The notes beneath the pieces were generated by a model. It was not told where the DNA came from. It saw only the letters and a list, made by a program, of their open reading frames with translations, and made no database searches. Both the position numbers and the translations under genes were made by a program. DNA of 55,613 nucleotides from a virus (lineage: Duplodnaviria; Caudoviricetes): the IMG/VR virus record IMGVR_UViG_3300042938_000869, positions 1-55,613 of that record; one strand, given 5' to 3'. Shown in pieces: positions 15,758 to 48,964 of the stretch (positions are counted from its first letter, which is position 1; each line of letters starts with the position of its first letter).

Positions 15758-18121
15758 ATGGCCTTGACCCCCGGTCTCTCCCCCTCTCTTCGCCTCGTGG
15801 ACCCTGAGAAGGACGAAGCCACCACCCATGTTGGAGACGCCGAAATCGTCGTTGAAGACGCCGACGAAGGGTCTGACACGCCAGACTACGACGAAAAGGG
15901 CAACATCCTGAGCATCGAGCACCCCGACGGCTCGATCACGGTGTCGTTGGACGGTCGACCGGTCGAGGATGCGGCCAATGACGACAATCCCGAGGGCTGG
16001 TTCGACAATCTGGTCGACAAAATCGACGACATGGAGCTTAGCCGCATTTCTGAGGATCTGCTGCGTGGCGTTGATGAGGACGTCACCAGCCGCACGTCGT
16101 GGATCCAAGAGCGCGCCAGCGGGCTGAAGCTGCTTGGCCTGCAGATCGAGCTTCCGACTACGCAGGGAACCACTGATGGCGCCCCTGTGGAGGGGATGAG
16201 CCGTGTGCGGCACCCCATGCTGCTGGAAGCCGTGCTGCGCTTTCAGGCCAATGCCCGGTCCGAGTTGCTGCCGACCGACGGCCCGGTGAAGATTCGCGAG
16301 GACAACAACAACGCCGACCTCAATTCCGATCAGCTTGCCAGCGCGCTCGAGCTAGACCTGAACCATTACCTGACGTCGACGGCAACGGAGTACTACCCGG
16401 ACACCGACCGCATGCTGTTCATGCTTGGCTTCGGCGGGTCCGCGTTCAAGAAGATTTACTTCTGCCCGCTGCGCGGTCGACCGGTGTCCGAAAGCGTGGA
16501 CGCCGATGACCTGATCGTCAACAACTCGGCCACTGACCTCGGCAACGCCAAGCGCATCACCCATCGGATCATGATGCGGGCGAGCACCGTACGCCGGATG
16601 CAGATCCTCGGCGTGTACAAGGACGAAGACCTGTCGACGCCCAACGAGCAGAAACAGGACAGCGTCCGCGATCAGAAGAAGGCCATTCAGGGCATCATGC
16701 CCAACTCAATCCGCCCGGATGACCGAGATCGCGAGATCTACGAGATCTACTGCGAGTTGGATATCCGTGGGTTTGAGCACAAGCGTAAGGGAAAGGTTAC
16801 GGGTCTCGAGATCCCGTATATTGTCACCGTCGACGTGTCGTCCCGCAAGGTGCTGTCCGTCGTCCGGAACTACGACGAAGAAACCAAGGAATTGCCCAAG
16901 GCCCGGCAGAACTTCGTGGCCTACCAGTTTGTGCCCGGTCTGGGGTTCTACGGCATCGGGCTGCTGCACATCCTCGGCAATACCACCAACGCCGTCACCG
17001 CCGCGTGGCGTGAGATGCTGGACGCTGGCATGTTCGCCAGCTTCCCCGGCTTCCTGATGGCCGACACGGGCGCTCGCCAGAACACCAACATCTTTAGAGT
17101 TCCGCCCGGCGGTGGTGCGCTGGTGAAGACGGGCGGCATGCCCATTAACCAAGCCATCATGCCCCTGCCGTACAAGGAGCCGTCTCAGGCGCTGATGGCT
17201 CTGGTCGAGAACATGGCCCAGACGGGCATGCGGATCGGCGGCACATCCGAGATGCAGGTTGGCGAGGGTCGCGCCGACGCTCCGGTCGGCACCACGCTGG
17301 CCATGATCGAGCAGTCCACCAAGGTGCTGAACTCGGTCCACAAGCGCATGCACGCGGCTCAGGCGCAGGAGTTCACCCTGCTGGCGCGGTGCTTCAAGGA
17401 GCACCCGGAAAGCTTCTGGCAGACCAACAATCGCCCGGCATACCCGTGGGACGAACAGACGTTCCTGATGGCGCTGGAATACGTCGATGGGCTGATGGTG
17501 CCGCAGGCGGATCCCAATACCTCCAGCCACGCTCAGCGCGTGATGAAGATCATGGCGCTGAAGCAGCTTCAGGCGGCGAACCCGACTATGTATGACCCCA
17601 TCGCGGTCGACAGGGCAGCGCTGCAGGCGATTGGCTGGAACAATCCTGAGCAGTTCATGGCTCCGCCCTCGGCTCAGGGCAAGCCTCCGCCGGAAATGCA
17701 GCAGGCAATTGCCAAGGCTCAGGTCGAGAAGCAGGACGCTGACACCAAGGCGTTCGCGGCCAAGTCCAAGGCTCAGACGGACATGATCCGGGCTCAGGCT
17801 GAGATGGCCAAGGCCCAGCAGCAGCCCGCGCAGGGCGCCGGTCTGGCGCCGCAGGATCCGTTCAAGGAAAAGCAGCTTGCCCTGAAGGAGCAGCAGATGC
17901 AGTTCCAGCAGGCCCGTGCTGCGGCTGACGATCAGAACCGTGATTTGGACAGGCAGGCTGACGTAACCATGGAGAAGATGCGGCTCGAGGGGGATGCAAT
18001 CAAGGCGTCGTCCGAGCACGCCCACAAGCGTGGACTGGCAGGCGACAAGATCTTGGCCGAGCACATCCGCCATGCCCACGAGCTGTCTGCCCGCACCTCT
18101 GGCGAAGGCACCGAGATATGA
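15758..18121 (+). CDS. Portal protein (P22-like, C-terminal helical barrel)
   Basis: Follows TerL; HPMLLEAVLRFQA, GSAFKK.Y, PG.GFYG.GL.H, APVGTTLAMIEQ; Q/A-rich coiled-coil tail. Confidence 0.9.
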   Translation: MALTPGLSPSLRLVDPEKDEATTHVGDAEIVVEDADEGSDTPDYDEKGNILSIEHPDGSITVSLDGRPVEDAANDDNPEGWFDNLVDKIDDMELSRISEDLLRGVDEDVTSRTSWIQERASGLKLLGLQIELPTTQGTTDGAPVEGMSRVRHPMLLEAVLRFQANARSELLPTDGPVKIREDNNNADLNSDQLASALELDLNHYLTSTATEYYPDTDRMLFMLGFGGSAFKKIYFCPLRGRPVSESVDADDLIVNNSATDLGNAKRITHRIMMRASTVRRMQILGVYKDEDLSTPNEQKQDSVRDQKKAIQGIMPNSIRPDDRDREIYEIYCELDIRGFEHKRKGKVTGLEIPYIVTVDVSSRKVLSVVRNYDEETKELPKARQNFVAYQFVPGLGFYGIGLLHILGNTTNAVTAAWREMLDAGMFASFPGFLMADTGARQNTNIFRVPPGGGALVKTGGMPINQAIMPLPYKEPSQALMALVENMAQTGMRIGGTSEMQVGEGRADAPVGTTLAMIEQSTKVLNSVHKRMHAAQAQEFTLLARCFKEHPESFWQTNNRPAYPWDEQTFLMALEYVDGLMVPQADPNTSSHAQRVMKIMALKQLQAANPTMYDPIAVDRAALQAIGWNNPEQFMAPPSAQGKPPPEMQQAIAKAQVEKQDADTKAFAAKSKAQTDMIRAQAEMAKAQQQPAQGAGLAPQDPFKEKQLALKEQQMQFQQARAAADDQNRDLDRQADVTMEKMRLEGDAIKASSEHAHKRGLAGDKILAEHIRHAHELSARTSGEGTEI

Positions 18122-20139
18122 AGAAGATCACCCGCAGGGCCCTCCTGACTGCAAAGGCATATCGCCCCGGGAAGGCAAGCGGGGGGTATGCTGACGGCGG
18201 CACGCCCGGAAACCTCCCTGCCCGCGTCGTCAACTTCAAGAATTTCTACTCCCGTGGCGCTGAAGCCGCCCGGCAATTGAGCCAGAAGAAGGGCTCCCCG
18301 CAGCAGATGCGCGCCATGCTGGTGAAGGCTGGCGTCAAGCCCGAGGAATTCACCCAGTCAGGCTTCGACGAGGCGTTTTCGGGCAAGCCCAGCGTGACCT
18401 CAGAGGAGCTATTCCAGCACTTCTATAAAAAGATGCCCAACATCGGTGTGGATAAGTTGTTGAGCGAAGACCACTCCAGCTACGACCCCACCGATCCAGA
18501 CGCCGAGGAGACGGCTCAGTTCGAGGATTACACCCTCCCCGGGCATACCAATTACCGCGAGCATCGGTTGAAGCTGCCTGAGACTAACAACAATTTCGAA
18601 GAGAACAATCACTGGCCCGGGCACAAGAATGTGGTGGCCCATATCCGCATGGCCGACCGCATCGAGCCTCCCTCCCATAAGGCGGGTGATCGAATAGTCG
18701 AGAAGATGCTGTCCGATCCAAACCTCACCCAGTCGCTGGGGACGGAGCCCGCCAACTGGGGCAGTGGCGCCCCTGACCTAGCGGTAAGTCGGGGGACCAT
18801 CACCAAAGAGGAAGCGCAGAACCTGTCCCGCGCTTGGGGTTGGCGCAACAATGCGATGAAGGGCTACAAGCCCCCGCGCGCCCTGCACGTCGAGGAGATC
18901 CAGTCTGACTGGGGGCAGGCAGGGCGCAAGCACGGGTTTCAGGATCCAAGCGTTGATGGTCCGTCTGACCGCAACAAGCCGCCGCAGGGTCCCTTTGTCA
19001 ATTCAACGCAGGGCTGGACCAGCCTCGTGCTCAAGCATGCGCTAACCGAGGCGGTAAACGGCGGCTACAACAAGCTGGTGTTCTCTCCCGGGCAGGCGAA
19101 CGCCGACATGTACGGCTTCGATGAGGAGCGGGGGAGCGGCATGAAGTCGTTCTACGATCAAATAATCCCGGCCCAGATGAACAAGCTGGTCAAGAGCCTC
19201 GACCCCGACCACCCCGGGGTGCAGATGTTCTCGCATGACCTGCCAGCCGATTACACCCACACCCGCGCTGCAGGCTATAAGGGCCACGCCCTCGAGATCA
19301 CCGACGGCTTGCGGGACGCCGTCAAACAGGGACTGCCGATGTACAAGGATGGGGGTGAGGTGGAGGGGAAAGAAGGTGGAGATTCGCCAGCCCAAAATGC
19401 GGCTGACCATATCGCACTTTTGCTCCGCGAAGACCGCGCCAAGGAAGTCACTGATGACCTGATGGGTCAGGCTGACCCGAAGCGTCTCCATGAGCATTAT
19501 GAGAGCGGCAACACCGGCATGCAGATGCCGATGGACGAAGATAGCCGCATGGATAGGGCGAAAGCTCTTGGTTTTGACGTAAAAGCATATCGAGGGCAAA
19601 CCGGAGACCCGGGGGCGTCCTTGAATACTGTTAGGACAGAAGGAAAAACTGCTGGAACGGGGGCTTGGGCAACGTCTGACCCAGATATAGCTGCGACATA
19701 TTCCGGCAGGGAAAACCCCGTCTCAATCCCCATGATGATTAAATCGGGTGAATATCAAGCCCATGATTTTGGTGGGAGATTTTGGGGGGATAGTCCGGAA
19801 GGAAAGACCACGGATGAGTTGGCCCGTGCTTCAAGCGCTCCGGGGGTCCAATTCAAAAACATCACTGATGTTGGACCGTATCTTTGGAACCGCGCAAATG
19901 TTCAAAAACGAATTCCTGAGACGGCTGACAGTTTTGCCATAAAAGACCCAAAAACAGTCAGGTCGAGGTTTGCCCGGTTTGATCCGCGCTTGGCGCATTT
20001 GTCACATCTGAGCGCGGCAACTGGTGGCACGATATCTGAAAAGGCTAACGGCGGGGGCGTTAACCGGCATCTGGTAAATTCCACTAATCCCGTGGTACAC
20101 AAAGCCATGGCTTTGGCCCGCAACCTCACGAGGCGGTAA
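18118..20139 (+). CDS. Polyvalent cargo-like protein: GNAT-like domain plus ADP-ribosyltransferase-like domain, separated by xxxGG linkers
   Basis: LHVEEIQSDW...ALTEAVNGGY...GMKSFYD, then RMDRAKALGFD.KAYRG...WATSDPDIAATY...DPKTVRSRFARFDP. Confidence 0.6.
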   Translation: MKKITRRALLTAKAYRPGKASGGYADGGTPGNLPARVVNFKNFYSRGAEAARQLSQKKGSPQQMRAMLVKAGVKPEEFTQSGFDEAFSGKPSVTSEELFQHFYKKMPNIGVDKLLSEDHSSYDPTDPDAEETAQFEDYTLPGHTNYREHRLKLPETNNNFEENNHWPGHKNVVAHIRMADRIEPPSHKAGDRIVEKMLSDPNLTQSLGTEPANWGSGAPDLAVSRGTITKEEAQNLSRAWGWRNNAMKGYKPPRALHVEEIQSDWGQAGRKHGFQDPSVDGPSDRNKPPQGPFVNSTQGWTSLVLKHALTEAVNGGYNKLVFSPGQANADMYGFDEERGSGMKSFYDQIIPAQMNKLVKSLDPDHPGVQMFSHDLPADYTHTRAAGYKGHALEITDGLRDAVKQGLPMYKDGGEVEGKEGGDSPAQNAADHIALLLREDRAKEVTDDLMGQADPKRLHEHYESGNTGMQMPMDEDSRMDRAKALGFDVKAYRGQTGDPGASLNTVRTEGKTAGTGAWATSDPDIAATYSGRENPVSIPMMIKSGEYQAHDFGGRFWGDSPEGKTTDELARASSAPGVQFKNITDVGPYLWNRANVQKRIPETADSFAIKDPKTVRSRFARFDPRLAHLSHLSAATGGTISEKANGGGVNRHLVNSTNPVVHKAMALARNLTRR

Positions 20140-22280
20140 TGGACGACAAGATTTCCCGGGCAATTAACGCGGCCAAGAAGCTTGGTGTCTCGATGAGCTA
20201 TGCGCGGGGGGGTACGCCTCCGCAGCAGGACATGCATACCATGGCCCGGGCATTGGAGCAGGTGCGCGGCACCAACATCGGGCGTCAGGTCGGCATGTAC
20301 CAGAACCAGCCCGCTGGTGAGGCTTTGCAGAGCCTGTACGGGGATCTCATGAGCCTTGCCCGGCAAGGGGCGCCGGGGCGCAGGTGGTACGAAAAGTCGA
20401 GCAAGCGCATCCTCGACTATTTTCATGGCGACAAGAACGAGGCCGACAAGTTCGCCCAGCTTATCGCCATCTACAGCCCGCAGACGACCGTGCCGGTGAA
20501 CACCGGCAACGCTATGAAGGCTTACAACCGCGCGCAAGCTGGTGAGCAGCTTTGGAACGGCGACATCATTGATCGTGACAGGACGTTTGGCAGCATCAAA
20601 GAGGCGAACGAATACTCGCGCAGCATTGGTGGTGAAGGCGCTGGCATCACCAAAGTGCCGCTCGATGATAGCGGAAAGCGGTTCTTGATCGCTCGGCACA
20701 AGCCCGGCAGCTATGAAAACATTGCCACGGCTGACCGCGATCTCAAAGCTCACCTGCTGATGAACGAAAATGTTCCGTTTGAAGGTCGCAAGACCAACAA
20801 TTTCTGGAACAACCTTATGGTTCACATCGACCCGAAGCGGTTGCAGGGCTCGACGCAGGATTTGTGGATGGCTCACGCCTTCGGTTTCCCCGACACGGCG
20901 GTAGGATCTGGTCAGAAGTACACCTTCATGGAGGATATGACCAAGAAGCTGGCCGACGAACTAGGCTGGCGTCCGCATCAGGTGCAGGCGGCGATCTGGA
21001 CGGCCATTAAGACCCGCATGGAGGGTGCCTCTAACGATGCCAAGCGCGAAGCTGTGAACCGAGGCATGGCGCAGATGGTGCCCGGCAATGGTGGCGCATC
21101 TCGGTTTGAGATCCATCCCGGTCGGGAAGACGATTTTTCCGAGCTTCACCGCGAAATGGCGCTGGGCAAGAAAGTGACCCGCAAGGATATCATCAGCAGC
21201 GCCCGAGATTTCTCTGACTTCCTTGATCAAAACCTTGGTTACGTGTCGTGGGAAAGCGCCCCCAGCAAGCAGATTGGCCACCTTAACGGCATTGAGCAGC
21301 TTCCTTCGGCGGCAAAGGCCGAATATCACGGCATGGTTTCAAAGGCATTGCAGGACGAAAAGGGTAACGATCTGCTTGCCAAGTTTCTTCGCATCATGTC
21401 GCCGGGCGGAGTTGATGCCAGTGGCTATTGGCAAGGCGCTTCCAACCCCCAGACGCATATGATGGCGGGCTCTACTCGCGTTAAAGGCGCGTTGCAGAGC
21501 CCCGATATAGACGAATCGTCTAAAAAGATGATGGAGTTATATGCCGCAGCCAAGGGCTTGCTGCATAAACAGGACGGCGTGGGGTATCACCGCCCCTATT
21601 ACAACCCCAAGGTGACGCAGGCGAACGGCATCGAATTTAACTTCGATAATGATGTCACTCCGGATCATATCGTTCGCCTCGGCAAGCACGTGGATGCGCT
21701 TTCCGGTGGCAATGCGGCAGTTATTCCTATAAACAATAGGACTGTTCGCATGCTGAATTTCGGCATTCCGGGCACTGAAAAAGATCAAAGGCCATTCCAC
21801 AAGGCCATGACGACGGCGGTCCAGAGCGCCTTTCCCAACACCCACAACGCTGATGCCAAGATTTTCGCCTCTGATGGCGATTTGATTGGAAACGATTGGA
21901 GTAAAAATCAAAATGGCGAAGATTACATCCGTAAAATTGGCGGGTCCGGACGATCCGATCTTCTCGAATACGTATCAACTGTTCTCGCCCCACGGCTCCA
22001 AGAGGTTGACCGCGCATTCGCCCAAAAACACGGGCTCCAAGTCGACCCCCAAGTCGAAAAAGCAATAGCTACCGCTCACTTGCACCCTCTTGCTGGTGGA
22101 AATCCGGCTTCTCAGCTTGCTCCCGCGCCTCAGCCTTTGACGACTGAATCCACGCAGCCTAATATGCCAACCACCCCGCCAAAATTTAAGCGGGGTGGTT
22201 TTGTGCATTCAAAATTCGGCACTGATGCTGTCCAGAACGCCGTGAAAATCGCAAGGCAGCTTAAACGGGGACGCCCGTAA
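20139..22280 (+). CDS. Polyvalent cargo-like protein with HhH-GPD/DUF7178-like domain
   Basis: RWY...IAIYSPQ....N...GRKTNNF..NL...TQDLWM...Y......LA..LGW.P.QVQAAIW; flanked by YARGG and FKRGG. Confidence 0.55.
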   Translation: MDDKISRAINAAKKLGVSMSYARGGTPPQQDMHTMARALEQVRGTNIGRQVGMYQNQPAGEALQSLYGDLMSLARQGAPGRRWYEKSSKRILDYFHGDKNEADKFAQLIAIYSPQTTVPVNTGNAMKAYNRAQAGEQLWNGDIIDRDRTFGSIKEANEYSRSIGGEGAGITKVPLDDSGKRFLIARHKPGSYENIATADRDLKAHLLMNENVPFEGRKTNNFWNNLMVHIDPKRLQGSTQDLWMAHAFGFPDTAVGSGQKYTFMEDMTKKLADELGWRPHQVQAAIWTAIKTRMEGASNDAKREAVNRGMAQMVPGNGGASRFEIHPGREDDFSELHREMALGKKVTRKDIISSARDFSDFLDQNLGYVSWESAPSKQIGHLNGIEQLPSAAKAEYHGMVSKALQDEKGNDLLAKFLRIMSPGGVDASGYWQGASNPQTHMMAGSTRVKGALQSPDIDESSKKMMELYAAAKGLLHKQDGVGYHRPYYNPKVTQANGIEFNFDNDVTPDHIVRLGKHVDALSGGNAAVIPINNRTVRMLNFGIPGTEKDQRPFHKAMTTAVQSAFPNTHNADAKIFASDGDLIGNDWSKNQNGEDYIRKIGGSGRSDLLEYVSTVLAPRLQEVDRAFAQKHGLQVDPQVEKAIATAHLHPLAGGNPASQLAPAPQPLTTESTQPNMPTTPPKFKRGGFVHSKFGTDAVQNAVKIARQLKRGRP

Positions 22281-23731: not shown

Positions 23732-23908
23732 TTAGCTTCGGAGCTTCAGAGGCTCATTGAGCAGAATATCGAGGCGCTTCGTGACAGCGTCTGCGCTGGC
23801 CTGCTGGCAGACATGCAGGACTACAAAAAACTCACAGGGCAGATCGAGGGGTTACGCATGGCGTTGACTTTGCTCGAGGCAGCGCGTGAGAATGTACTGA
23901 AACGTTGA
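23723..23908 (+). CDS. Small head-assembly-region protein
   Basis: MERLASELQRLIEQ...DYKKLTGQIEGLRMAL; precedes GroES. Confidence 0.7.
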   Translation: MERLASELQRLIEQNIEALRDSVCAGLLADMQDYKKLTGQIEGLRMALTLLEAARENVLKR

Positions 23909-24306
23909 TGGAGAGAAACGTGCCTATCACTTCAATGCATCACGACGAGGATCCTGCGAAGGACATCGTTGACAGAGTTGGGAATATTTCCGGCTTCGAC
24001 CTGTTTGGCCCCAAGGTGCTGGTCGCAATTTACGTGCGCCCTGAAAAGACCAAGGGCGGCATCTACCTCACTGACAAAGTCCGTGACGAAGACCTATATC
24101 AGGGGAAAGTCGGCTATGTGCTGAAGGTTGGCCCCGGCGCCTTTGCCGACAGCGAGTGGTTTGGAAACGTCCAGATCAAGGCGGGCGACTGGGTTGGTTT
24201 CCGCGCCTCGGATGGCGCCACACTGGTCGTCAATGGCGTGAATTGCCGGTTGCTGGAAGATGTCCGCATCTACGGCAAGGCTTCGCACCCCGATTTGATT
24301 TTCTGA
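23908..24306 (+). CDS. groES: Co-chaperonin GroES/Cpn10-like
   Basis: KVLV...PEKTKGGIYL...GYVLKVGPGA...IKAGDWV. Alternative start GTG 23920. Confidence 0.85.
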   Translation: MERNVPITSMHHDEDPAKDIVDRVGNISGFDLFGPKVLVAIYVRPEKTKGGIYLTDKVRDEDLYQGKVGYVLKVGPGAFADSEWFGNVQIKAGDWVGFRASDGATLVVNGVNCRLLEDVRIYGKASHPDLIF

Positions 24307-28432: not shown

Positions 28433-28729
28433 ATGAAGGGTCGTAAGGGTCGTGCCACGGGTGGCGATGCCACTGTGGGCACCAAAGAGTACGAGCAGGA
28501 TCTTGCTCACAAGAACCAGCGTTACACCTACCAGAGCAAGGTGAACGACGCTGCCGAAGAGCGTAAGCACGGTGGCAAGACGGTCGGCAAGGCTGACGGG
28601 ATTGCTGCCAAGAAGCACGGCGGGCGCATGGCGCGCAAGTCGGGCGGCCGCACGGGTTCCAACATGAACCCGCTGTCTTCGGCTGCTTCGGGTACCGCCC
28701 CCACCGGGCGCAAGCTCCAGATGAACTAA
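28433..28729 (+). CDS. Small basic xxxGG-motif protein
   Basis: RATGG, RKHGG, KKHGG, RKSGG; AGGAGG RBS. Confidence 0.8.
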   Translation: MKGRKGRATGGDATVGTKEYEQDLAHKNQRYTYQSKVNDAAEERKHGGKTVGKADGIAAKKHGGRMARKSGGRTGSNMNPLSSAASGTAPTGRKLQMN

Positions 28730-41815: not shown

Positions 41816-42406
41816 ATGCCCCTTAAGCGCGGAAATTCGCAAGAAACGATAAGCGGCAACATCAGCGAGATGATGCACGCCGGGCGCCCGCAGGGGCAGG
41901 CTGTCGCGGCTGCGCTGAGCACGGCGCGCGAGGCACATGCTCGAGGATCTCAGGTCGCACGGCCCAAGGGCGGCGCCATGGGGAAGGTTCATGTTGGGCC
42001 GATCCACAGCAACGTGGCGGGGCGCACCGATCACCTGCCGATGCACGTGAAGTCCGGATCTTACGTGATCCCGGCGGATATCATCTCGGCCATGGGCGAA
42101 GGCAACAGCATGGCCGGGTTCAAGATTGCCAACAGCATCTTCAGCAAAATGCCTTACGGGGCTTCAGAGATTGGGGCAGGGATGCCTTACGACGCGCCCG
42201 CCGTCGCAAAAGCGGGTGGTGGTGAGGTGGACACGGTGCCCATCGTCGCCGCTGGTGGAGAGTACGTTATTCCTCCGGAGGATGTCGTGAAGATCGGGGA
42301 AGGAGACCTCGATCATGGGCATCGGATTCTGGATGAGTTCGTAAAAAAGTATCGGGCAAAGACCATCAAGACCCTGCAAAAGCTACCGGGTCCAAAAGTC
42401 GATTAA
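41816..42406 (+). CDS. Conserved internal-virion-region protein with two G(S/E)YVIP repeats
   Basis: N-terminal MPLKRG.SQ.TIS.NI...GRPQ.QAVAAALS.AR; DHLP....GSYVIPADII..MGEG and DTVP....GEYVIPPEDV..IGEG. Confidence 0.75.
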   Translation: MPLKRGNSQETISGNISEMMHAGRPQGQAVAAALSTAREAHARGSQVARPKGGAMGKVHVGPIHSNVAGRTDHLPMHVKSGSYVIPADIISAMGEGNSMAGFKIANSIFSKMPYGASEIGAGMPYDAPAVAKAGGGEVDTVPIVAAGGEYVIPPEDVVKIGEGDLDHGHRILDEFVKKYRAKTIKTLQKLPGPKVD

Positions 42407-42416
42407 AGGAAAAAGC

Positions 42417-42923
42417 ATGACAGACGCCGCAGACGCCCCCGCAGTTCGTGTAGGAACCCCCGCAGACCTCGACGGCATGATGCATCTGGCGCTCGACGCC
42501 ACGCAGGAAAACGCATTCATCTCTCCGGACGTCTCCAAGCTCCTCAAAACCATGTGGGGTGCTCTAACTAGGCAGAACGGCATCGTGGGGATTATTGGAA
42601 AGCCGGGCGAGGCTTTTGAAGGAGCCATCCTTTTGGTTTTTGGAGAGCTATGGTACAGTAACGAACCTGTACTGGAAGAACGAGCGGTGTTTGTGGCGCC
42701 AGAATATCGCAACGCGAAGGGTGGACGGGCTCGCAAGCTGTGTGAGTTTGCGAAAACGGCATCCGAAGAGCTTGCTATTCCGCTATCCATCGGGGTGCTT
42801 TCAAACAGTCGGACTGAAGCGAAAATCCGCTTGTATGAGCGGATGTTTGGGCAGCCTGCGGGCGTTTATTTTCTCTATGGGGCCAAGACCGGTCTCAGTG
42901 AACCTTCTAGCGAGATCCCATAA
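42417..42923 (+). CDS. GNAT-fold acetyltransferase-like virion protein
   Basis: VRVGTPADL, FVAPEYR...GRARKL.EFAK, RLYER; sits just before the ejection proteins. Confidence 0.75.
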   Translation: MTDAADAPAVRVGTPADLDGMMHLALDATQENAFISPDVSKLLKTMWGALTRQNGIVGIIGKPGEAFEGAILLVFGELWYSNEPVLEERAVFVAPEYRNAKGGRARKLCEFAKTASEELAIPLSIGVLSNSRTEAKIRLYERMFGQPAGVYFLYGAKTGLSEPSSEIP

Positions 42924-45900
42924 TGTCTGGCGGCGGAAAAACTCAAACCTCCACATCTTCCGTACAGATTCCGCCGGAGGTGCTGGCTCGCTATAATGCG
43001 GTCAACGCAAGGGCCGAAAACGTAGCCTCAACGCCGTTTCAGGCATATTCCTACGACCCAAGTGCCTTTGTTGCGCCGATGACGGAAACGCAAAATGCGG
43101 CAATTGGCCAGATCGGGCAGGCGTCCGGCATGGCGCAGCCGTACTTCCAGACTGGTGCCGCAGCGACATTGGGGGGTATGGGCCCCGCCAATCTGGGCGA
43201 GCTCGACACCAACAAGTACATGAGCCCGTATCTGCAAAACGTGGTGCAGAGCACGGCGGACATTCTGGGTCAGCAAAACCGGCAGGATATGTCTGGCGCG
43301 CTTGGCACGGCCATCCAGTCAGGCGCTGGGTTTGGCGACCGGTCCGGCATTGCCGCTGCCAACCTGAACCGGCAGCAGATGATGGGCATGGGCAGCACCA
43401 TCGGCAACCTGCTCAATCAGGGCTACATGCAGGCTCAGGGCGTTGCCCAGCAGCAGCAGAGCGCCGACCTTGCGGCCCGGCAGGCGAACCTTGCCCGGCT
43501 GTTGCAGGGCGGGCAGAGCATCGGTCAGTTGGGTGCTGGCGCTCAGGGCGCCGCGCTGGCTGGAAGTCAGGCGCTTCTCGGCGCTGGCACGCAGCAGCAG
43601 CAGACTGAGCAGGCCGGTCTGTCGGCCCTCTACAACCAGTACCAGCAGGAACGCGCCTATCCGTTCCAAACCACTCAGTTCCTTGGCAACATTGGCATGG
43701 GCACTGGTGCGCTGTCCGGCGCAACCACGACGGAAACAAAACCCGCAGGGTTCTTCTCTGGCCTCAAGCGTGGCGGCAAGGTCGTCGAGGGCGTCGGCTA
43801 TCGGCGCGGCGGGATCGTCCCCGAGAGCATGGGCGGTCACGTCAGTGCAGGGCACATGGGCGAGGGCTACGCCGATGGCGGCTCCCCGCAGATGGACTAT
43901 GCCTCCATGGTCATACAGCAGCTTTTTGGCGGCATGGATCCGAATGCGGGGGCCTATGGGCGGGGCTCTGCGGGGATCGGCTCTGGCGGGTTTGTTCCGC
44001 AGGCGAACTTGCCGGTCGGCCAGCTGAATGCGCCCAAGATTTCGCAGAGCGCTCCGCAGACTTCCATCTCTGATTTGGTTGACACCGGTGGAAAGCTTTA
44101 TGAGGGCGCGGAAAACGTCGGAAAATGGTGGGAAGAGAACAATCCCTCGCCGCCTGTTATTGATGAAAACGACCCTCAATTCAAAAATTGGGACCGCGCT
44201 GCTGGCGGGCGCACAACGCGCACGGGGCTCGCCGCTGGCGGCATGCCTTATGACCCCCAGAATACGGGGTACGTGCCGGATAATGCTCCCAAGGAGACGC
44301 CGGAACTGCTTCAGCCGAAAGGCCCGAGCCAAACCCAGAGCGGGCTGAGCAAGGTTGCGGATATTGCTAAAATTGTTGGCGCGTTCATGGCCAACGGCGG
44401 CGTTGCCGGTCGGCATGGGTATGCAGGTGGTGGCCGTCCGGAACCCCTCACTTTGGATCAAGAACTGCTGGAGTATGCGCGCAGAAGGCCCGCGTCCGCG
44501 TTGTTCGATCCGGGTCCGCAGAACTTGCCGCCGGGACCGTTTTCGTACAATCCGAGTCAGCAGAGCTTACCACCGGGGGGCATAACTGTCCCCACTCCGC
44601 GTCAAGAGGTAGCGGAGCTTGCGCGCCAAAAAGCGGCGGCGGCTGAAGCGGAATTTCGGAGGCAGTTGCGCGCCGCTCCCTCAAATTTGGCCGTAGCCAC
44701 ACCGGCTGGCCTTTCCGCCGCTGATGCTGAGCGCATCCGGAGGGAGCACTACACCAGCGTTTATAAAACTCAGCCGGTCGAGCGGATCCTTCCAACTGCA
44801 GGCGATATGTTCCGTCGCAGCTTGGAGATAGCCCCCGAAAATTTGGCTGTAGCCACCCCTGCTGGCCTTTCTGCCGCTGATGCTGAGGGCATCCGGGGGG
44901 AGTACTATACCAGCCTTTATAAAACTCAGCCGGTTGAGCGGTTCAACGCTTTTGGAACGCCGGTGCCAGCGGGTGCGCCTGCAGACGCGGGGGCGATAGC
45001 GGCGACTGATGGCGGCCTGAAGCCAGCAGCGTCACCAGTGCGGGTTGTGGGGGCGCAGCCTGCTGCGACCGAATTCCCGATTGCCCCCTCTTGGACGCTC
45101 CCAGAGGTAACGGCCATCCCCACTGCCGCCGCTGAGACCCCGGACGGGCTTGCTGGCGCGGCATTGCCTGCACCTACCCCCGAGGGGCCAGCCGATCTTA
45201 CGAGCGGCGTGGCAAACGCTGCAGAGCCTATCGCCGGGGCGGAGCCGGGGCTGGCGGCTGGTACTGGGGCCGGGACGCCTACAGTCGCAACTGGAGATCG
45301 CGAGGCTTATTACGCAGCGATCAAGGCGGCTGAGAGCGGGAATAACCCCAACGCTCAGAGTAACACGTCATCTGCTTCTGGCTACTATGGGTTCACGGAC
45401 GGGACGTGGAGCGCGTTGGCGCAAAAGTATCCAGAGGCCGGTCTCACTGCTGACGGGAAGAACGATCCGGCGCAACAGGAGCGGGCAATCCGCCTATTGA
45501 CGGCGGAGAACGAACGCCAGCTTAAAAACGCCGGAATTCCCGCAACTAACGGCAATCTTTATGCTGCACATTTTCTTGGGGCAGGTGCCGCCCCAAGGGT
45601 GCTTAGTGCCCCAGACGGAGCAGCTATCGAAGGGCTGGTTCCGGCGTCCTACATCGCGGCCAATCCGTTTCTTAAAGGCATGACCGTTGGTGAGTTTAAG
45701 CAATGGACCAATGAAAAAAGCTCCGGCGGCGGTGGTGGCGGCGTCGGCACGCTTGGAGACGCAGCGATCACGTCCCCCGACGTAACCGACACCCGCCCCG
45801 ATGGCGGTCGCAACGATCAGCCTGCACCCGGCTTGGGCGGCAAGAACTTTTTTGAGAAGATGATCGATAAGGCTGGCGGCCCAGAGAACATCATCCTGCC

Positions 45901-47035
45901 GTTCCTGTCGGGGCTGGGGAAGATGGCTGGATCGCAGAGCCGGTTCCTCGGTACGGCCATCCTCGAGGGCGTGGGTGGCGGCGCCGAGGCTTATATGAAG
46001 CGTCAGGAACAGCTTGCTAACATCGGGATGACGGAAGCGACGACACGCGGTATCGATATCGAAAACGTCAAGAAAAGTCTTCAGGTTACCGCTCAGGGAA
46101 ATATCATGTGGACCGTCAAAGGCCCCATGAATGCTGTCGAATATTTCCGGCTTAGAGAGGAAGGAAAGGCGCCAGAAACTTTGGGTTATATTCCCGGCCA
46201 GCCGGACCAGAGCGGCACAAATGCGCCCAGCGGTGAAGCTGTTACGCCGCGCGGCACGGAACTTCCTGCAGGGATCAATTTTGGCGACAAATCTATGGAT
46301 TTCGCCAACAACGAACCTCTAGTAGCAAATGGATTGACCGGCGGTGCTGGGTACGAGTTGGCGCTCGAGGCCACTAAAACTTATCAAAGCGCCGTGACCG
46401 GCGCTGCGGCAGCGGCGAGAGACACTGACACATTGACCAGCGATATGGCGGTCAATTTGGCAGATGTAATTGCATCTGACCCGGGAATTTTGAGTTCTCC
46501 GGGTGCAGGGTTCGATGTGCGTGCCAATATCGCAAGCATCCTGAACACGACTGCTCGTGCGTTCAAACTTGATCTGAACTTTTCTCAGGCCGATGAGCAG
46601 GCAGACATCAGCAAGAAAATGCAGTATCTCTTTGCTGCATCGCGCGCTTCGGGGGCGGATCAAAGCTCGAATGCCACGTTTGAAGCCTTGGCAGCGGCCT
46701 TGCCAAACCCCAACATGCCGCCTGAAGCCATAGCTGAGCTTACGGCGTCTATGCTCGTCAACAATCAGCGCTCTAAGGCCCGCCAGTGGCACATGAACAA
46801 GTACAAGCAGAACTCGGGTGGCTTCCTCGCAGATGCGGGCTTTGCCTTTAATCAGGACAACCCCGCCACCGATGCCATGCAGGCAAAGGAGGCAATAAAG
46901 AATTTCATGTTGAAAGACCCCGACATATTTGCGGGGATTATGAAAGGCAAGTATACAGCGCAGGATGTTGATGAAATGTTCCAGCAGTCTGTCGGCATAC
47001 CGGGCATGAGCGGCTATTTGATGGGAAACATCTAA
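42923..47035 (+). CDS. Large internal virion/DNA-ejection protein with lytic transglycosylase-like domain
   Basis: MSGGGKTQTSTS start, YMSPYLQNV, Q/G/A-rich helices; IKAAESG.NPNA....SSASG.YGF..GTW...LYAAHFLG. Confidence 0.8.
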   Translation: MSGGGKTQTSTSSVQIPPEVLARYNAVNARAENVASTPFQAYSYDPSAFVAPMTETQNAAIGQIGQASGMAQPYFQTGAAATLGGMGPANLGELDTNKYMSPYLQNVVQSTADILGQQNRQDMSGALGTAIQSGAGFGDRSGIAAANLNRQQMMGMGSTIGNLLNQGYMQAQGVAQQQQSADLAARQANLARLLQGGQSIGQLGAGAQGAALAGSQALLGAGTQQQQTEQAGLSALYNQYQQERAYPFQTTQFLGNIGMGTGALSGATTTETKPAGFFSGLKRGGKVVEGVGYRRGGIVPESMGGHVSAGHMGEGYADGGSPQMDYASMVIQQLFGGMDPNAGAYGRGSAGIGSGGFVPQANLPVGQLNAPKISQSAPQTSISDLVDTGGKLYEGAENVGKWWEENNPSPPVIDENDPQFKNWDRAAGGRTTRTGLAAGGMPYDPQNTGYVPDNAPKETPELLQPKGPSQTQSGLSKVADIAKIVGAFMANGGVAGRHGYAGGGRPEPLTLDQELLEYARRRPASALFDPGPQNLPPGPFSYNPSQQSLPPGGITVPTPRQEVAELARQKAAAAEAEFRRQLRAAPSNLAVATPAGLSAADAERIRREHYTSVYKTQPVERILPTAGDMFRRSLEIAPENLAVATPAGLSAADAEGIRGEYYTSLYKTQPVERFNAFGTPVPAGAPADAGAIAATDGGLKPAASPVRVVGAQPAATEFPIAPSWTLPEVTAIPTAAAETPDGLAGAALPAPTPEGPADLTSGVANAAEPIAGAEPGLAAGTGAGTPTVATGDREAYYAAIKAAESGNNPNAQSNTSSASGYYGFTDGTWSALAQKYPEAGLTADGKNDPAQQERAIRLLTAENERQLKNAGIPATNGNLYAAHFLGAGAAPRVLSAPDGAAIEGLVPASYIAANPFLKGMTVGEFKQWTNEKSSGGGGGGVGTLGDAAITSPDVTDTRPDGGRNDQPAPGLGGKNFFEKMIDKAGGPENIILPFLSGLGKMAGSQSRFLGTAILEGVGGGAEAYMKRQEQLANIGMTEATTRGIDIENVKKSLQVTAQGNIMWTVKGPMNAVEYFRLREEGKAPETLGYIPGQPDQSGTNAPSGEAVTPRGTELPAGINFGDKSMDFANNEPLVANGLTGGAGYELALEATKTYQSAVTGAAAAARDTDTLTSDMAVNLADVIASDPGILSSPGAGFDVRANIASILNTTARAFKLDLNFSQADEQADISKKMQYLFAASRASGADQSSNATFEALAAALPNPNMPPEAIAELTASMLVNNQRSKARQWHMNKYKQNSGGFLADAGFAFNQDNPATDAMQAKEAIKNFMLKDPDIFAGIMKGKYTAQDVDEMFQQSVGIPGMSGYLMGNI
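44683..44941 (+). repeat. Intragenic ~103-bp imperfect direct repeat (156-bp period)
   Basis: 44683-44785 and 44839-44941 encode NLAVATPAGLSAADAE.IR.E.YTS.YKTQPVER. Confidence 0.9.
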
Positions 47036-48964
47036 ATGGCTGGCGAAAATCCATTGCTGAATAGCAATTTCTTCAAGGAGGCTATGCGCCTCAAGGAAGA
47101 AGGCAAAAATCCATTGATGGACATGGGGGGCGAAAAAACCTCGCGCCCCATTGAAGAAGCCGCACCAGCCGCCGCACCCGGATCCGCTGCCCCTGCTTCC
47201 GCCGCGCCAGATGCCGGGCGCCCAGACTTCAAAAACATGAGCATTGGCGAAAGGGCAAACATGAGCATTGGCGAAAAGGCCATGCTTACTATGCAGAATG
47301 TCCCGGAAAGTTTCAGCAAGAATACTGGTGACATCGCGTATGCCGTAACCAACCCCGTAGAAACTGCCGGTGCCCTTTGGAACGTCGGCGAAGGCGCTGT
47401 TTCGAAGGCGGCTGGCGCGCTTGGGTTTGAGCAGGACAAAGCTCAAAAAGCTAAAACCGAAGGTGCTCTGGACGCATCCATCTCGGGCCTCGCCGAAAGG
47501 TTTGGGTCTTGGGAGGGGTTTGAGGAAGCACTTATTACCGATCCAATTGGTGTTCTTATGGATCTTGGAACATTCATCCCATTGGCTGGTGCAGGCGCTA
47601 AAGCTGCGGGGCTGGCCAAGGCAGCCAAAGTCTTGGATACGGCAAAATACCTTGACCCTCTGACCGCCGCCGGAGCCGCCACGAACGCTGTGATGACACC
47701 TGTGCTGGGTACCGCAAAGCATGCTCTTGGTGTGTCCACAGGGACCGGAAAGTCGGTTCTTGATCAAGTTCAAGAGGCAGGCAGAAGCGCCGATCCAAAT
47801 CGTAGGGCCGCTGTGAGCGATTTCGCTCGTGGATCGGGAGACCCAAAAGAAATCATCAATGACGCTCTCCGTGCAGCTAACGAGGGCGATCTGGCTGCCA
47901 AGGCTGAATTTAGGCAGCGCCTTGGCCAGTTGGCACAAGACCCTCTACCGACCACTGCCGTAACAGATGCGCTTCAGAAGGCCCGGGACGGAATTAGCAT
48001 ATCTACTGACCCTAGAACCGGCCTACCAATTGTCCCTGCTGCATATAAATTGGAGCTTGATGCTATTGAAGGTGCCGAAGGGATGCTTCGGAACCATGGG
48101 AACTTTACACCCGAAGGCATGCATGAGTTAAAAGTTGCAATCAATCAGTATTTTAACGATATGGGGGTTGCTCAAGGCCGCTCCAAATCGGGTTTGATGG
48201 GGGGAATCCCTGACGCCATCAAAAAGACGATCAATAGGGTCGACCCCAAATACCAAGAGGCCATGGATTTTTGGGTAGATTACAAGGATAGGATCCGCAA
48301 TCTTTCTGCTGGTTTGGGCCAAAACTCTCGCGCTGGAAGCGCGACCCAGCTTGCGAAAATGATGAAGGAAATGAAGAAGGGCAAAACGCCTCTTCTTGAT
48401 ATCCTCTCTAAATATCCGTCTGGAAAGTATCTGAAGGACAAGCTGGCCGGCGCGTCCATACACGAGCTTTTCCCGAATTGGTTCCAGCAGGCCAATCCGT
48501 TGCTGCAAACTTTGGGCGGCGTCGGCGTCGGCACTGGCGCGGTCCTTGGCATGGTGCCGCATGTTGCGGGTACGATGGCAGCTTCATCCCCTCGCCTAGT
48601 TGGCAGCGCCATGTACGGCGCAGGGGCGGCCCAACGCGCTGGCAAGGTCGCTGCTGACGTGCTGAGAACCCCGACATGGGCAGCCTCCACTCTCGGCGAA
48701 CTCGCGCAAGAACAGTCTGAAGAAAACCCGATCATCAAGACCGAGGCAACACCCGTGCAGAGCGTGCAGGGCAGTATGTTTGCCGGTGGGCGTATCGGGC
48801 GCCGGAGCGGTGGCCGCGTGGGCAATCCGGGGTCTGTTGCGGAAAAGCTTATTAGGGCTGCGGAGCAGGCGAAAAACAGGCATAGTGACGGGACCAGCCC
48901 GCTGCTGAACGTTCCAGATGAGGCCATCACCAAGGCCCTCGCAATTGCGAATGAGAAGATCTGA
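47036..48964 (+). CDS. Internal virion/DNA-ejection protein
   Basis: Ala/Gly-rich helical protein, SSPRLVG, C-terminal MFAGG/RRSGG plus terminal helix; 24-bp tandem repeat at 47233-47280. Confidence 0.7.
   Translation: MAGENPLLNSNFFKEAMRLKEEGKNPLMDMGGEKTSRPIEEAAPAAAPGSAAPASAAPDAGRPDFKNMSIGERANMSIGEKAMLTMQNVPESFSKNTGDIAYAVTNPVETAGALWNVGEGAVSKAAGALGFEQDKAQKAKTEGALDASISGLAERFGSWEGFEEALITDPIGVLMDLGTFIPLAGAGAKAAGLAKAAKVLDTAKYLDPLTAAGAATNAVMTPVLGTAKHALGVSTGTGKSVLDQVQEAGRSADPNRRAAVSDFARGSGDPKEIINDALRAANEGDLAAKAEFRQRLGQLAQDPLPTTAVTDALQKARDGISISTDPRTGLPIVPAAYKLELDAIEGAEGMLRNHGNFTPEGMHELKVAINQYFNDMGVAQGRSKSGLMGGIPDAIKKTINRVDPKYQEAMDFWVDYKDRIRNLSAGLGQNSRAGSATQLAKMMKEMKKGKTPLLDILSKYPSGKYLKDKLAGASIHELFPNWFQQANPLLQTLGGVGVGTGAVLGMVPHVAGTMAASSPRLVGSAMYGAGAAQRAGKVAADVLRTPTWAASTLGELAQEQSEENPIIKTEATPVQSVQGSMFAGGRIGRRSGGRVGNPGSVAEKLIRAAEQAKNRHSDGTSPLLNVPDEAITKALAIANEKI

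What the first reader, a model, noticed from the sequence alone, without database searches (positions are those of the whole stretch)
18118..48964. Genome-wide di-glycine tag shared by seven late proteins: candidate capsid cargo-loading/maturation code
Seen: about 35 copies of [RKYFML]-[AK]-x-G-G, often followed by x-[VIAT]. They occur in 18118 (KASGG, YADGG, YKDGG, AATGG, KANGG), 20139 (YARGG, FKRGG), 22302 (~13), 28433 (4), 41816 (RPKGG, KAGGG), 42923 (LKRGG, YRRGG, YADGG, RAAGG, LAAGG, MANGG, YAGGG) and 47036 (MFAGG, RRSGG). I did not see this clustering in the capsid, terminase or replication proteins. GGRMARKSGGR is identical in two genes (23250-23282 and 28619-28651), yet 6 of 11 codons differ synonymously, pointing to selection on the peptide. 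Established: adenovirus protease cuts (M/I/L)xGG|X and ASFV pS273R cuts GG|X during virion maturation. Inference: this phage uses a GG signal for cleavage or docking of internal-virion cargo.
Basis: partly seen in the sequence, partly recalled or inferred. Interest (0 to 1): 0.9.

Follow-up and report, generated by a model that had tools for sequence, protein, structure and literature searches.

The report
Shared di-glycine tag on phage cargo
An uncultured podovirus-like phage and its many relatives put the same short glycine-glycine peptide, usually beside a small basic helix, on otherwise unrelated proteins that look like capsid-packaged, host-injected cargo, which suggests a natural address label for loading proteins into a phage head.

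Summary
In the seven named proteins, [RKYFML][AK]xGG occurs 28 times against 3.0±1.8 in shuffles. The other 65 proteins hold 2. The identical 11-residue peptide with 6 of 11 synonymous codon differences is confirmed.

The signal repeats independently in 80 related viral contigs. It marks proteins downstream of the portal even when they share no homology with the window (3.47 versus 0.23–0.29 per 1000 aa). Individual sites are kept in 16/16 and 19/19 homologues.

The GG motif is half of a larger module. A basic amphipathic helix is flanked by GG motifs, at N-termini (helix then GG), at C-termini (GG then helix) and at domain junctions of fused proteins (GG, helix, GG).

- **Carriers:** polyvalent effector proteins (ART-PolyVal in 14 of 40), ejection proteins, and a disordered polycationic "hub" (22302-23633).
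- **Hub relatives:** they carry a median of 9 motifs each.

My best reading is a packaging or docking tag for internal-virion cargo, analogous to the T4 capsid targeting sequence. Cleavage at GG stays possible, but I found no protease gene. The binding partner is unknown and the function is inferred. I found no description of the tag in the papers searched.

The parts
18118..20139 (+). Cargo protein 1 (673 aa), directly after the portal gene. It has an N-terminal tag, a folded GNAT-like domain (res 34-411), a boundary motif YKDGGEV, a poorly modelled C half resembling the end of ART-PolyVal domains of relatives, and a C-terminal tag.
   Evidence: AF2: pLDDT high over 34-411, below 50 from 412; top VIA rows almost all GNAT, Z 7-8.5, borderline
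18118..18207 (+). N-terminal tag of cargo 1: predicted helix at res 2-14, then KASGG and YADGG (res 19-29).
   Evidence: N-tag HMM 22.1 bits; helix 2-14, pLDDT below 50, not packed on the domain
19342..19362 (+). Inter-domain motif YKDGGEV (res 409-415) at the exact end of the confident fold.
   Evidence: GG kept in 16 of 16 homologues at 26-98% identity, V at +2 in 13 of 16
20014..20136 (+). C-terminal tag of cargo 1: AATGG and KANGGGV, then a terminal basic helix (res 658-672).
20139..22280 (+). Cargo protein 2 (713 aa, DUF7178). N tag at 20139-20219 (helix then YARGG). C tag at 22185-22277 (FKRGGFV, helix, ...KRGRP end).
   Evidence: DUF7178 E 3.7e-11; N-tag HMM 13.9 bits
22302..23633 (+). 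Hub: a 443-aa disordered, basic, Pro/Gly-rich protein. It has 10 reader-regex motifs (18 GG), a conserved N-terminal domain ending in FKQGGKV, and two CxCxxC-containing copies of a 120-nt duplication.
   Evidence: FKQGGKV, RKSGGR and RKAGGRV each kept in 19 of 19; Atlas model mean pLDDT 0.43
28433..28729 (+). Small basic protein (98 aa) with four hub-type motifs. It shares GGRMARKSGGR with the hub.
41816..42406 (+). 196-aa protein of the ejection-protein block, with RPKGG and KAGGGEV.
   Evidence: phrog_2423 over res 1-44; homologues 3.49 per 1000 aa; KAGGGEV kept as GG in 4 of 8
42923..47035 (+). 1370-aa ejection protein with a lytic transglycosylase domain. Motif clusters lie at 43763-43888 (LKRGGKV, YRRGGIV, YADGGSP) and 44195-44440 (RAAGG, LAAGG, MANGG, YAGGG).
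   Evidence: phrog_4287 DNA ejection protein, phrog_4067 transglycosylase; five motifs kept in 3 of 3 full-length homologues
47036..48964 (+). 642-aa protein of the ejection block. C-terminal tag at 48776-48961 (MFAGGRI, RRSGGRV, then two short amphipathic helices).
   Evidence: both motifs kept in 3 of 3 homologues at 28-43% identity
15758..18121 (+). Portal protein (context: marks the start of the cargo block).
23905..24306 (+). Phage Cpn10/GroES homologue (context). Its loop reads KTKGGIYL.
24317..25207 (+). Scaffolding-like protein with a conserved C-terminal helix-turn-helix-like end (context, candidate reader of the tag).
26989..27900 (+). Major capsid protein (context, candidate reader). 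It is 83-87% identical across relatives whose portals are 62-71% identical.

Best explanation
The di-glycine motif is one element of a modular address tag carried by proteins that are built into the phage head and leave it at infection.

**The tag.** The full unit is a short basic amphipathic helix flanked by seven-residue motifs. The motif has an aromatic or basic residue at -3, Ala or Lys at -2, a polar residue at -1, Gly-Gly, a polar residue at +1 and Val or Ile at +2. Separately translated cargo proteins carry half-units at their ends: Met-helix-GG at the N terminus and GG-helix-stop at the C terminus. Fused polyvalent proteins carry GG-helix-GG between domains.

**Proposed mechanism (inferred).** The tag works by non-covalent docking during procapsid assembly. 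Low-valency 'client' tags are mostly [YF]A(D/E)GG(E/D)V. They sit on effector enzymes (ADP-ribosyltransferase, GNAT-like, pyrophosphatase and others) and on ejection proteins. They recruit these proteins to the capsid interior together with a high-valency, disordered, polycationic hub protein (22302-23633) that carries about ten basic [RK]KxGG[RK]x copies.

**Shown:** the motif, its context, its exclusive distribution, its conservation, the module architecture, and the disorder of the tag regions.

**Inferred:** that the carriers are packaged, that the tag is the packaging signal, and that it acts by binding rather than by being cut. The receptor is not identified. It could be the capsid shell, the scaffold, the portal, the hub or the DNA.
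For: 1. Enrichment over local-composition shuffles in the window (28 against 3.5±1.8) and independently in relatives (260 against 33.3±5.2; with V/I at +2, 123 against 2.7±1.6).
2. Distribution: proteins with no BLAST match to the window carry 3.47 motifs per 1000 aa when downstream of the portal, against 0.29 upstream and 0.23 on the other strand. TerL has 0.13 and the portal 0.16.
3. Without any regex, GG contexts show Y/F/R/M at -3, K/A at -2, R/K at +1 and V/I at +2 only in the cargo class. Pro is depleted at -1 (0.6% against 7%) and at +1, and charged residues are nearly absent at +2.
4. 70 of 82 cargo-class proteins of at least 250 aa have a motif within 50 aa of the N end or 70 aa of the C end, against 2 of 159 other proteins. 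An HMM of the N-terminal tag hits 44 cargo-class sites and 0 in 202584 aa of other proteins.
5. Junctions of fused proteins read GG, helix, GG. Motif spacing peaks at 8 and 24 residues.
6. Every separately translated cargo keeps its own helix-GG end. That is expected of a packaging signal and is not needed for a pure inter-domain cleavage site.
7. Positional conservation: 16/16, 19/19, 19/19, 19/19 and 18/19; 3/3 at 28-43% identity.
8. Carriers are polyvalent-protein effectors: ART-PolyVal in 14, GP88 in 4 and InPase in 2 of 40. The others are ejection proteins.
9. AF2 places the motifs outside the fold. The hub is modelled as disordered.
10. Hub relatives: 739 cluster representatives at E≤0.001. 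In the 127 of the best 150 that have at least 300 aa, the median is 9 motifs (1143 against 95.3±10.2 in shuffles).
11. Precedent: diverse T4 internal proteins share only a capsid targeting sequence (PMC3012670, passages read). The first 30 residues of P1 DarB suffice for packaging (PMC9024508, abstract and passages).
Against: - No binding partner was identified and no experiment exists.
- The virion location of the carriers is inferred from gene position and domain families only.
- The extended, proline-poor, both-sided motif would suit a protease substrate equally well.
- Hub-type and client-type motifs differ in charge (net charge of -3..+1 at least +2 in 158 of 192 hub instances against 25 of 156 client instances). 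They may therefore be two functions lumped under one regex.
- More distant relatives with the same head module lack the motif (Caulobacter phage RW and Roseobacter phage CRP-901: 0 clear instances), so it is not essential to this head type.
- The cargo class in relatives was defined by position and includes a few non-cargo genes, such as a pectate-lyase tailspike.
Confidence: 0.5

Rival explanations
1. Proteolytic maturation code. A phage or host protease cuts at or within the GG motif. This releases the individual domains of polyvalent proteins, removes the terminal helices (as T4 removes its targeting sequence), and chops the hub into small basic DNA-condensing peptides, as adenovirus does with its core precursors.
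For: - Motifs sit exactly at domain boundaries and between tag helix and cargo.
- The motif is extended, Pro is depleted at -1 and +1, and there is a hydrophobic residue upstream and Val/Ile downstream, as in protease sub-site recognition.
- The hub has about 10 sites spaced 8-40 residues apart.
- Iyer et al. 2017 argue that polyvalent proteins are processed (PMC5512222, passages read).
Against: - No peptidase family appears in about 50 window proteins. Only 1 of 40 relatives' cargo proteins has a weak putative metallopeptidase hit (E 5.5e-4).
- The conserved unknown head protein 25207-25740 has no invariant Ser or Cys and only one invariant His.
- The head module looks P22-like: a separate scaffold with a C-terminal helix-turn-helix-like end and no protease gene.
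- The register differs from the adenain consensus.
- Single-domain cargo with tags at both ends would gain nothing from cleavage except tag removal.
Confidence: 0.25
2. Ejection aid. The tags are flexible hinge-plus-leader elements. They let multi-domain proteins unfold and thread through the portal and tail channel, or they order the exit of these proteins, or they insert into the host membrane after exit. They would not serve loading.
For: - All carriers are proteins expected to leave through the tail.
- Tags lie at chain ends and between domains.
- The helices are basic and amphipathic.
- A related [FYM]AxGG motif is enriched in proteins at the ejection-protein position of more distant contigs (55 against 7.4±2.6 in shuffles; elsewhere 10 against 7.0).
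Against: - A hinge needs no conserved aromatic residue at -3 or Val at +2.
- This reading does not explain the high-valency hub.
- There is no direct test.
Confidence: 0.1
3. Nucleic-acid binding. The basic hub-type copies ([RK]KxGG[RK]) and the terminal ...KRGRP ends bind the packaged DNA. The hub would then be a DNA-condensing core protein, and the client-type motif would be something else.
For: - Hub motifs have net charge of at least +2 in 158 of 192 instances.
- The hub is disordered and Lys/Arg-rich.
- 17 of 82 cargo-class proteins end in a ...G[RK]P-type tail against 5 of 159 others. The resemblance of that tail to an AT-hook core is recalled, not tested.
Against: - Client-type motifs are neutral or acidic (42 of 156 net negative), yet they share the GG-x-V core and the same conservation.
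- Cargo must be loaded before the DNA.
Confidence: 0.08
4. Mimic of the GroES mobile loop. The tags would bind host GroEL, in line with the phage's own Cpn10 gene in the head module.
For: The window's Cpn10 loop reads KTKGGIYL. It is superficially like the motif, and the gene lies amid the tagged genes.
Against: - At +1 only 10% of motif instances are hydrophobic, and +3 is mostly polar, so the hydrophobic run after GG is missing.
- Relatives that keep the Cpn10 gene lack the motif (RW, CRP-901).
Confidence: 0.02
5. No function: a by-product of Gly/Lys/Ala-rich linker composition, of repeated duplication, or of a DNA-level signal.
For: - The hub contains a 120-nt duplication.
- Linkers are Gly-rich.
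Against: - Local 15-residue shuffles that keep linker composition never approach the observed counts (0 of 400; maximum 50 against 260).
- Sites are kept at 26-50% identity.
- Gly codons vary as expected from codon usage (third-position identity 0.40 against 0.32 expected).
Confidence: 0.02

Closest known systems
T4 capsid targeting sequence (CTS) of internal proteins IPI-III and Alt
   Same: A short peptide is the only thing shared by a diverse set of injected anti-host proteins, and it directs them into the prohead (PMC3012670, passages). Alt is an ADP-ribosyltransferase, as are many carriers here.
   Different: - The CTS is N-terminal only and is removed by the prohead protease at a Leu/Ile-x-Glu site (recalled).
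- Here the tag is GG-based, has a helix partner, and occurs at both ends and between domains.
- No protease gene was found, and there is a multivalent hub.
P1 DarB N-terminal packaging signal (Dar antirestriction system)
   Same: A giant polyvalent antirestriction protein is directed into the capsid by its first 30 residues (PMC9024508, abstract and passages).
   Different: That signal is a single N-terminal one in a myovirus that has a prohead protease. No shared motif across cargo is reported in the passages I read.
Polyvalent proteins of phages and conjugative elements (Iyer et al. 2017)
   Same: The carriers hold ART-PolyVal, InPase, LPD23, GP88 and DUF7178 domains and sit beside the portal gene.
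   Different: - The paper links packaging to MuF and processing to metallopeptidase domains.
- A text search of the paper found 0 uses of 'glycine' or 'linker'.
- Its supplementary alignments could not be opened.
Adenovirus protease and ASFV pS273R GG-type maturation sites
   Same: A hydrophobic residue lies upstream of Gly-Gly, sites are spread over several internal and core proteins, and one carrier is a basic DNA-associated protein with many sites.
   Different: - The register is shifted by one residue.
- No clan CE or any other peptidase was detected.
- These are bacterial, not eukaryotic, viruses.
- Cleavage is unproven.
Encapsulin cargo-loading peptides
   Same: A short, Gly-containing terminal peptide on unrelated cargo is read by the inside of an HK97-fold shell (recalled).
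   Different: Encapsulin peptides are C-terminal and single. Binding of the present tag to the capsid protein is untested.
P22-type scaffolding protein C-terminal coat-binding helix-turn-helix
   Same: A basic helical terminal peptide takes a protein into a procapsid. The window's scaffold has such an end.
   Different: Cargo tag helices do not resemble the scaffold's conserved end closely.

Membership tests
T4-type capsid targeting sequence | One short peptide shared by otherwise unrelated internal-head proteins | tested here: met
   Non-homologous post-portal proteins share the helix-GG ends. 70 of 82 cargo-class proteins have a terminal motif against 2 of 159 others.
T4-type capsid targeting sequence | N-terminal position only, removed by a phage prohead protease | tested here: not met
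   Tags occur at N ends, C ends and internal junctions. No protease family was found in the HMM scans. Removal itself is untestable here.
T4-type capsid targeting sequence | Sufficient to carry a foreign protein into the capsid | not testable with these tools
   Needs an encapsidation assay.
Adenain / pS273R-type GG maturation cleavage | Virus encodes a clan CE cysteine protease | tested here: inconclusive
   There is no peptidase Pfam or PHROG hit in about 50 window proteins at E up to 0.01-0.1. A divergent or host enzyme cannot be excluded.
Adenain / pS273R-type GG maturation cleavage | Site consensus with the hydrophobic residue two positions before Gly-Gly | tested here: not met
   The enriched Y/F/M/R/K position is three residues before the first Gly. 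The position two before it is Ala or Lys.
Adenain / pS273R-type GG maturation cleavage | Precursors are cut at the motif in virions | not testable with these tools
   Needs virion N-terminomics.
Polyvalent proteins (Iyer et al. 2017) | Several effector domains of the catalogued families in one polypeptide | tested here: met
   In relatives: ART-PolyVal in 14, GP88 in 4, InPase in 2, LPD23 in 1 and DUF7178 in 1 of 40. In the window: DUF7178 in 20139. For 18118 there is only a GNAT-like fold at borderline Z 7-8.5 and no Pfam hit.
Polyvalent proteins (Iyer et al. 2017) | Encoded next to the portal and terminase of a tailed phage | tested here: met
   Genes 18118 and 20139 follow the portal directly. 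The arrangement is the same in the relatives.
Encapsulin-type cargo-loading peptide | Peptide binds a pocket on the inner face of the HK97-fold shell protein | not testable with these tools
GroES mobile loop (GroEL-binding) | Run of hydrophobic residues directly after Gly-Gly | tested here: not met
   +1 is hydrophobic in 10% of 351 instances and basic or acidic in 60%. Only +2 is hydrophobic (51%).

The most novel reading that the evidence does not exclude
The tag is a sticker-and-spacer loading code. A disordered polycationic hub with about ten basic GG stickers condenses inside the assembling procapsid. Any protein bearing one or more acidic or aromatic GG stickers next to a basic helix partitions into that condensate as a client, is packaged, and is later injected. 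Cargo genes could then be swapped freely behind the portal gene, which would explain their hypervariability. The tag would also be a portable handle for loading chosen proteins into phage heads.
Probability: 0.2. Interest if true: 0.85.

Novelty: new variant of a known kind. Interest (0 to 1): 0.68.

Why it matters
- **A readable loading rule.** How podovirus-like phages select and load injected proteins is poorly understood outside T4 and P1. Here one rule appears to govern hypervariable anti-host effector cargo. It is a seven-residue GG motif plus a basic helix, placed at chain ends and domain junctions.
- **It covers a large uncultured clade.** The hub family alone has 739 cluster representatives at 50% identity.
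- **Annotation use.** If the rule holds, cargo can be predicted from sequence. Of 82 cargo-class proteins, 70 carry a terminal motif, against 2 of 159 other proteins. The rule would also delimit effector domains in unannotated polyvalent proteins.
- **Applied use.** It offers a compact natural tag for packaging foreign proteins into phage particles.
- **An open question becomes testable.** Whether cargo enters the head by docking or by cleavage-coupled capture can be tested directly with this tag.

Tried and rejected
**Tests that gave no answer**
- Complex prediction of capsid protein, scaffold, the 25207 protein and the N-terminal tag (res 1-45 of 18118) gave no verdict: score 0.05 against a mark of 0.32. 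This is neither support nor evidence against binding. Only one job was allowed, so the portal, the hub and tag-tag pairs were not tried.
- PDB sequence searches found nothing for the capsid protein or the portal. For 42923 they found only the transglycosylase domain.
- Protein 25207-25740 was examined as a possible hidden protease:
  - The Atlas search gave only unnamed viral clusters.
  - The AF2 model had mean pLDDT 70.8.
  - Foldseek found no hit at E≤0.001.
  - The best VIA Z was 3.7.
  - There is no sign of a protease fold, but this does not exclude one.
- Foldseek on the 18118 model gave no hit at E≤0.001. VIA gave GNAT rows at borderline Z.

**Ideas I dropped**
- Cargo ends copy the scaffold's C-terminal coat-binding end. 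The scaffold end is conserved but clearly different.
- N and C tags pair with each other to chain cargo head to tail. Fused junctions hold one helix, not two, and AF2 did not dock the ends.
- GroES-loop mimicry.
- A DNA-level motif.

**Method notes**
- My helix regex was too strict: 26 of 63 against 1 of 159, with many obvious tags missed.
- The N-tag HMM does not detect the mirrored C tags.
- LASGG in 29656-30306 and the GG pairs in 48964-50712 look like chance matches in beta-rich structural proteins.

**Literature and tools**
- Six searches or text look-ups found no description of the motif.
- Supplements could not be opened.

Full report
**What the window is.** The 55.6-kb window is a whole IMG/VR virus record estimated 95% complete. 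The gene order is:
- primase-helicase
- small and large terminase (13967-15628)
- portal (15758-18121)
- three large genes (18118, 20139, 22302)
- a Cpn10/GroES homologue (23905-24306)
- a scaffold-like protein (24317-25207)
- a conserved 177-aa protein
- the major capsid protein (26989-27900)
- adaptor and tail genes (two SU10-adaptor paralogues, phrog_3287, phrog_1645)
- a block with a GNAT and a transglycosylase-bearing 'DNA ejection protein' (41816-48964)

By portal similarity the nearest named records are an uncultured Caudoviricetes genome (MW202675.1, 67%). More distant are Pelagibacter phages HTVC027P and HTVC023P, phage 023Pt_psg01, Roseobacter phages CRP-901 and CRP-902, and Caulobacter phages at 29-35%.

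Whole-protein shuffles give 3.0±1.8 and shuffles confined to 15-residue windows give 3.5±1.8. None of 400 shuffles of either kind reaches 28.
- The other 65 proteins hold 2, with 3.3 expected.
- Plain GG is only modestly over-represented (78 against 59.1±7.0), so the context carries the signal.
- The identical GGRMARKSGGR in 22302 and 28433 differs at 6 of 11 codons and 8 of 33 bases.
- Across the 30 instances found with the widened regex, the two Gly codons use GGC, GGT and GGG. Third-position identity is 0.40 against 0.32 expected from codon usage. This is a peptide-level feature, not a DNA-level one.

**Independent replication.** The regex and the gene set were chosen after seeing the data, so I tested other genomes.
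- A portal-based scan of IMG/VR returned 80 loci with portals 62-99% identical.
- Homologues of 18118, 20139 and 22302 carry 3.0, 2.3 and 17.1 motifs per 1000 aa. TerL carries 0.13 and the portal 0.16.
- Proteins with no BLAST match to any window protein carry 3.47 per 1000 aa if they lie downstream of the portal. They carry 0.29 upstream and 0.23 on the other strand.
- I then excluded the nine loci closest to the window and dereplicated the rest. The 65 cargo-class proteins give 260 hits against 33.3±5.2 in local shuffles. With Val/Ile at +2 they give 123 against 2.7±1.6.
- The 321 other proteins give 20 against 17.4±4.2, and 1 against 2.1.
- Without the hub-like proteins the figures are 103 against 14.3±3.8, and 64 against 1.6±1.4.
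- With no regex at all, residues around GG in the cargo class are enriched for Y/F/R/M at -3, K/A at -2, R/K at +1 and V/I at +2. GG contexts in other proteins show nothing comparable.
- In MW202675.1, 21 of 26 wide-regex hits lie in the seven corresponding proteins.

**Positional conservation.**
- YKDGGEV of 18118 keeps its GG in 16 of 16 homologues at 26-98% identity.
- In the hub, FKQGGKV, RKSGGR and RKAGGRV are each kept in 19 of 19, and KKKGGKV in 18 of 19.
- Other copies are variable or fall in gaps.
- In the ejection block, five motifs of 42923 are kept in 3 of 3 full-length homologues. Both C-terminal motifs of 47036 are kept in 3 of 3 at 28-43% identity. KAGGGEV of 41816 is kept as GG in 4 of 8.

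**The motif is part of a larger module.** Listing the ends of post-portal proteins shows that unrelated proteins start with Met, a short basic amphipathic helix, then [YF]AxGG. They end with [YF]KxGGxV, a similar helix and often a ...KRGRP-type tail.
- In fused polyvalent proteins the domain junctions read GG motif, 3-10 residues, one helix, GG motif, often followed by an acidic run.
- Motif-to-motif spacing peaks at 8 residues (tandem pairs) and at 24 (the helix unit).
- 70 of 82 cargo-class proteins of at least 250 aa have a motif within 50 residues of the N end or 70 of the C end, against 2 of 159 other proteins.
- An HMM of the N-terminal tag finds 44 sites in the cargo class, 2 in the window (18118 and 20139) and none in 202584 aa of other proteins.
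- AF2 of 18118 models residues 34-411 with confidence. It places the N-terminal helix (2-14) and the GG motifs in low-confidence, unpacked segments, and confidence collapses exactly at residue 412, the YKDGGEV site.

**Who carries it.**
- A Pfam census of 40 non-hub cargo-class representatives finds ART-PolyVal in 14, GP88 in 4 and InPase in 2.
- DUF7178, LPD23, GNAT and DUF3990 each occur in 1.
- One protein has a weak putative metallopeptidase hit, and one is evidently a tailspike.
- These are the 'polyvalent proteins' of Iyer et al. 2017.
- In the window, 20139 has DUF7178. The fold of 18118 resembles GNAT acetyltransferases, with almost all of the top 50 rows being GNATs but at Z 7-8.5, which the tool rates as borderline.
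- 42923 has a lytic transglycosylase and an ejection-protein N-domain.

**The hub.**
- The 22302 protein is basic, Pro/Gly-rich and modelled as disordered (Atlas pLDDT 0.43).
- A profile of its N-terminal 80 residues finds 739 representatives of 50%-identity clusters at E≤0.001, and 673 at ≤1e-10.
- Of the best 150, the 127 that have at least 300 aa carry a median of 9 motifs (range 4-16). The total is 1143 against 95.3±10.2 in shuffles.
- Hub motifs are basic: Lys at -2 in 80%, a basic residue at +1 in 72%, and net charge of at least +2 in 158 of 192.
- Client motifs are [YF]A-type and often acidic: Ala at -2 in 74%, and 42 of 156 net negative.

**Scope.**
- A second scan with the tail protein 40438-41814 gave 80 loci. 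74 of them had a called homologue of the query protein, and in 67 of those it was under 70% identical.
- Proteins at the ejection-protein position of those 67 loci show 94 reader-regex hits against 28.1±5.0, and 55 [FYM]AxGG hits against 7.4±2.6, often as tandem pairs. Other proteins show 19 against 17.2 and 10 against 7.0.
- 023Pt_psg01 and HTVC027P have a few clear copies.
- Caulobacter phage RW and Roseobacter phage CRP-901 have none, although they keep the same head module, including the Cpn10 gene.

**How it most likely works.** The distribution, the terminal placement on every separately translated cargo and the T4 and P1 precedents point to a packaging or docking tag.
- A pure cleavage signal would not need to sit at both ends of single-domain proteins.
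- The valency pattern, with about ten copies on a disordered hub and one to eight on clients, together with the complementary charge flavours, suggests clients are recruited along with the hub.
- This mechanism is inference. The receptor is unknown.

**Cleavage remains a serious rival.**
- The motif is extended and proline-poor, and it lies at domain borders.
- Against cleavage, no peptidase family appeared in about 50 window proteins or in 39 of 40 relatives' cargo proteins.
- The conserved unknown head protein 25207-25740 has no invariant Ser or Cys.
- The register also differs from the adenain consensus.

**Comparison with what is known.** Six searches or text look-ups found no description of this motif or module. 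The polyvalent-protein paper does not use the words 'glycine' or 'linker'. Its supplements, which may show such junctions in alignments, could not be opened.

**Verdict.** I rate this a new variant of a known kind, namely capsid-targeting signals for injected proteins. The sequence evidence is unusually strong, and the function is still untested.

Noticed in passing
window 1154-1762 (+): A homologue of the GcrA cell-cycle regulator (Pfam GcrA, E 1.8e-21). That this family is typical of Alphaproteobacteria is recalled, and it would hint at the host.
   Followed up: no
window 23905-24306 (+); also L084, L085, L086: A phage-encoded Cpn10/GroES sits inside the head module. It is conserved from this clade to pelagiphages, roseophages and Caulobacter phages.
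   Followed up: partly
window 26989-27900 against 15758-18121 and 24317-25207: In the same relatives the capsid protein is 83-87% identical, the portal 62-71% and the scaffold 35-49%. The shell is under unusually strong constraint.
   Followed up: partly
window 28771-29046 (+): A stand-alone DUF6321 protein (E 1.3e-15). It matches the C-terminal ends of eight PHROG families of much larger proteins, such as positions 850-927 of 928. It may be another portable terminal module.
   Followed up: no
window 29028-29459 (+): An endonuclease VII / HNH-like gene lies between the head and tail modules (phrog_2633, E 5.4e-28). It could be a homing endonuclease.
   Followed up: no
window 22872-22991 and 23091-23210: A 120-nt direct duplication (84% identical) inside the hub gene. 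Each copy encodes a helix and a CxCxxC cluster next to a GG motif.
   Followed up: partly
C termini of cargo proteins, e.g. window 22263-22277; L012, L013, L060, L069: Many cargo proteins end in a ...KRGRP-type tail: 17 of 82 against 5 of 159 others. A second alternative end reads GG..HP...I.G.HI.....P.F[TS]G, in 6 of 82 against 0 of 159. It resembles a segment of the window's 41816 protein.
   Followed up: partly
window 35870-36616 and 37044-37793 (+): Two paralogous SU10-adaptor-like proteins in tandem (E 5.5e-8 and 4.8e-16).
   Followed up: no
window 25207-25740 (+): A conserved 177-aa head-module protein with a Trp-rich core. It has no family and no structural match: best VIA Z 3.7, no Foldseek hit at E≤0.001.
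   Followed up: yes
L003 (HTVC027P) and L084 (023Pt_psg01): In these marine relatives the large cargo-like genes lie between the terminase and the portal instead of after the portal.
   Followed up: no
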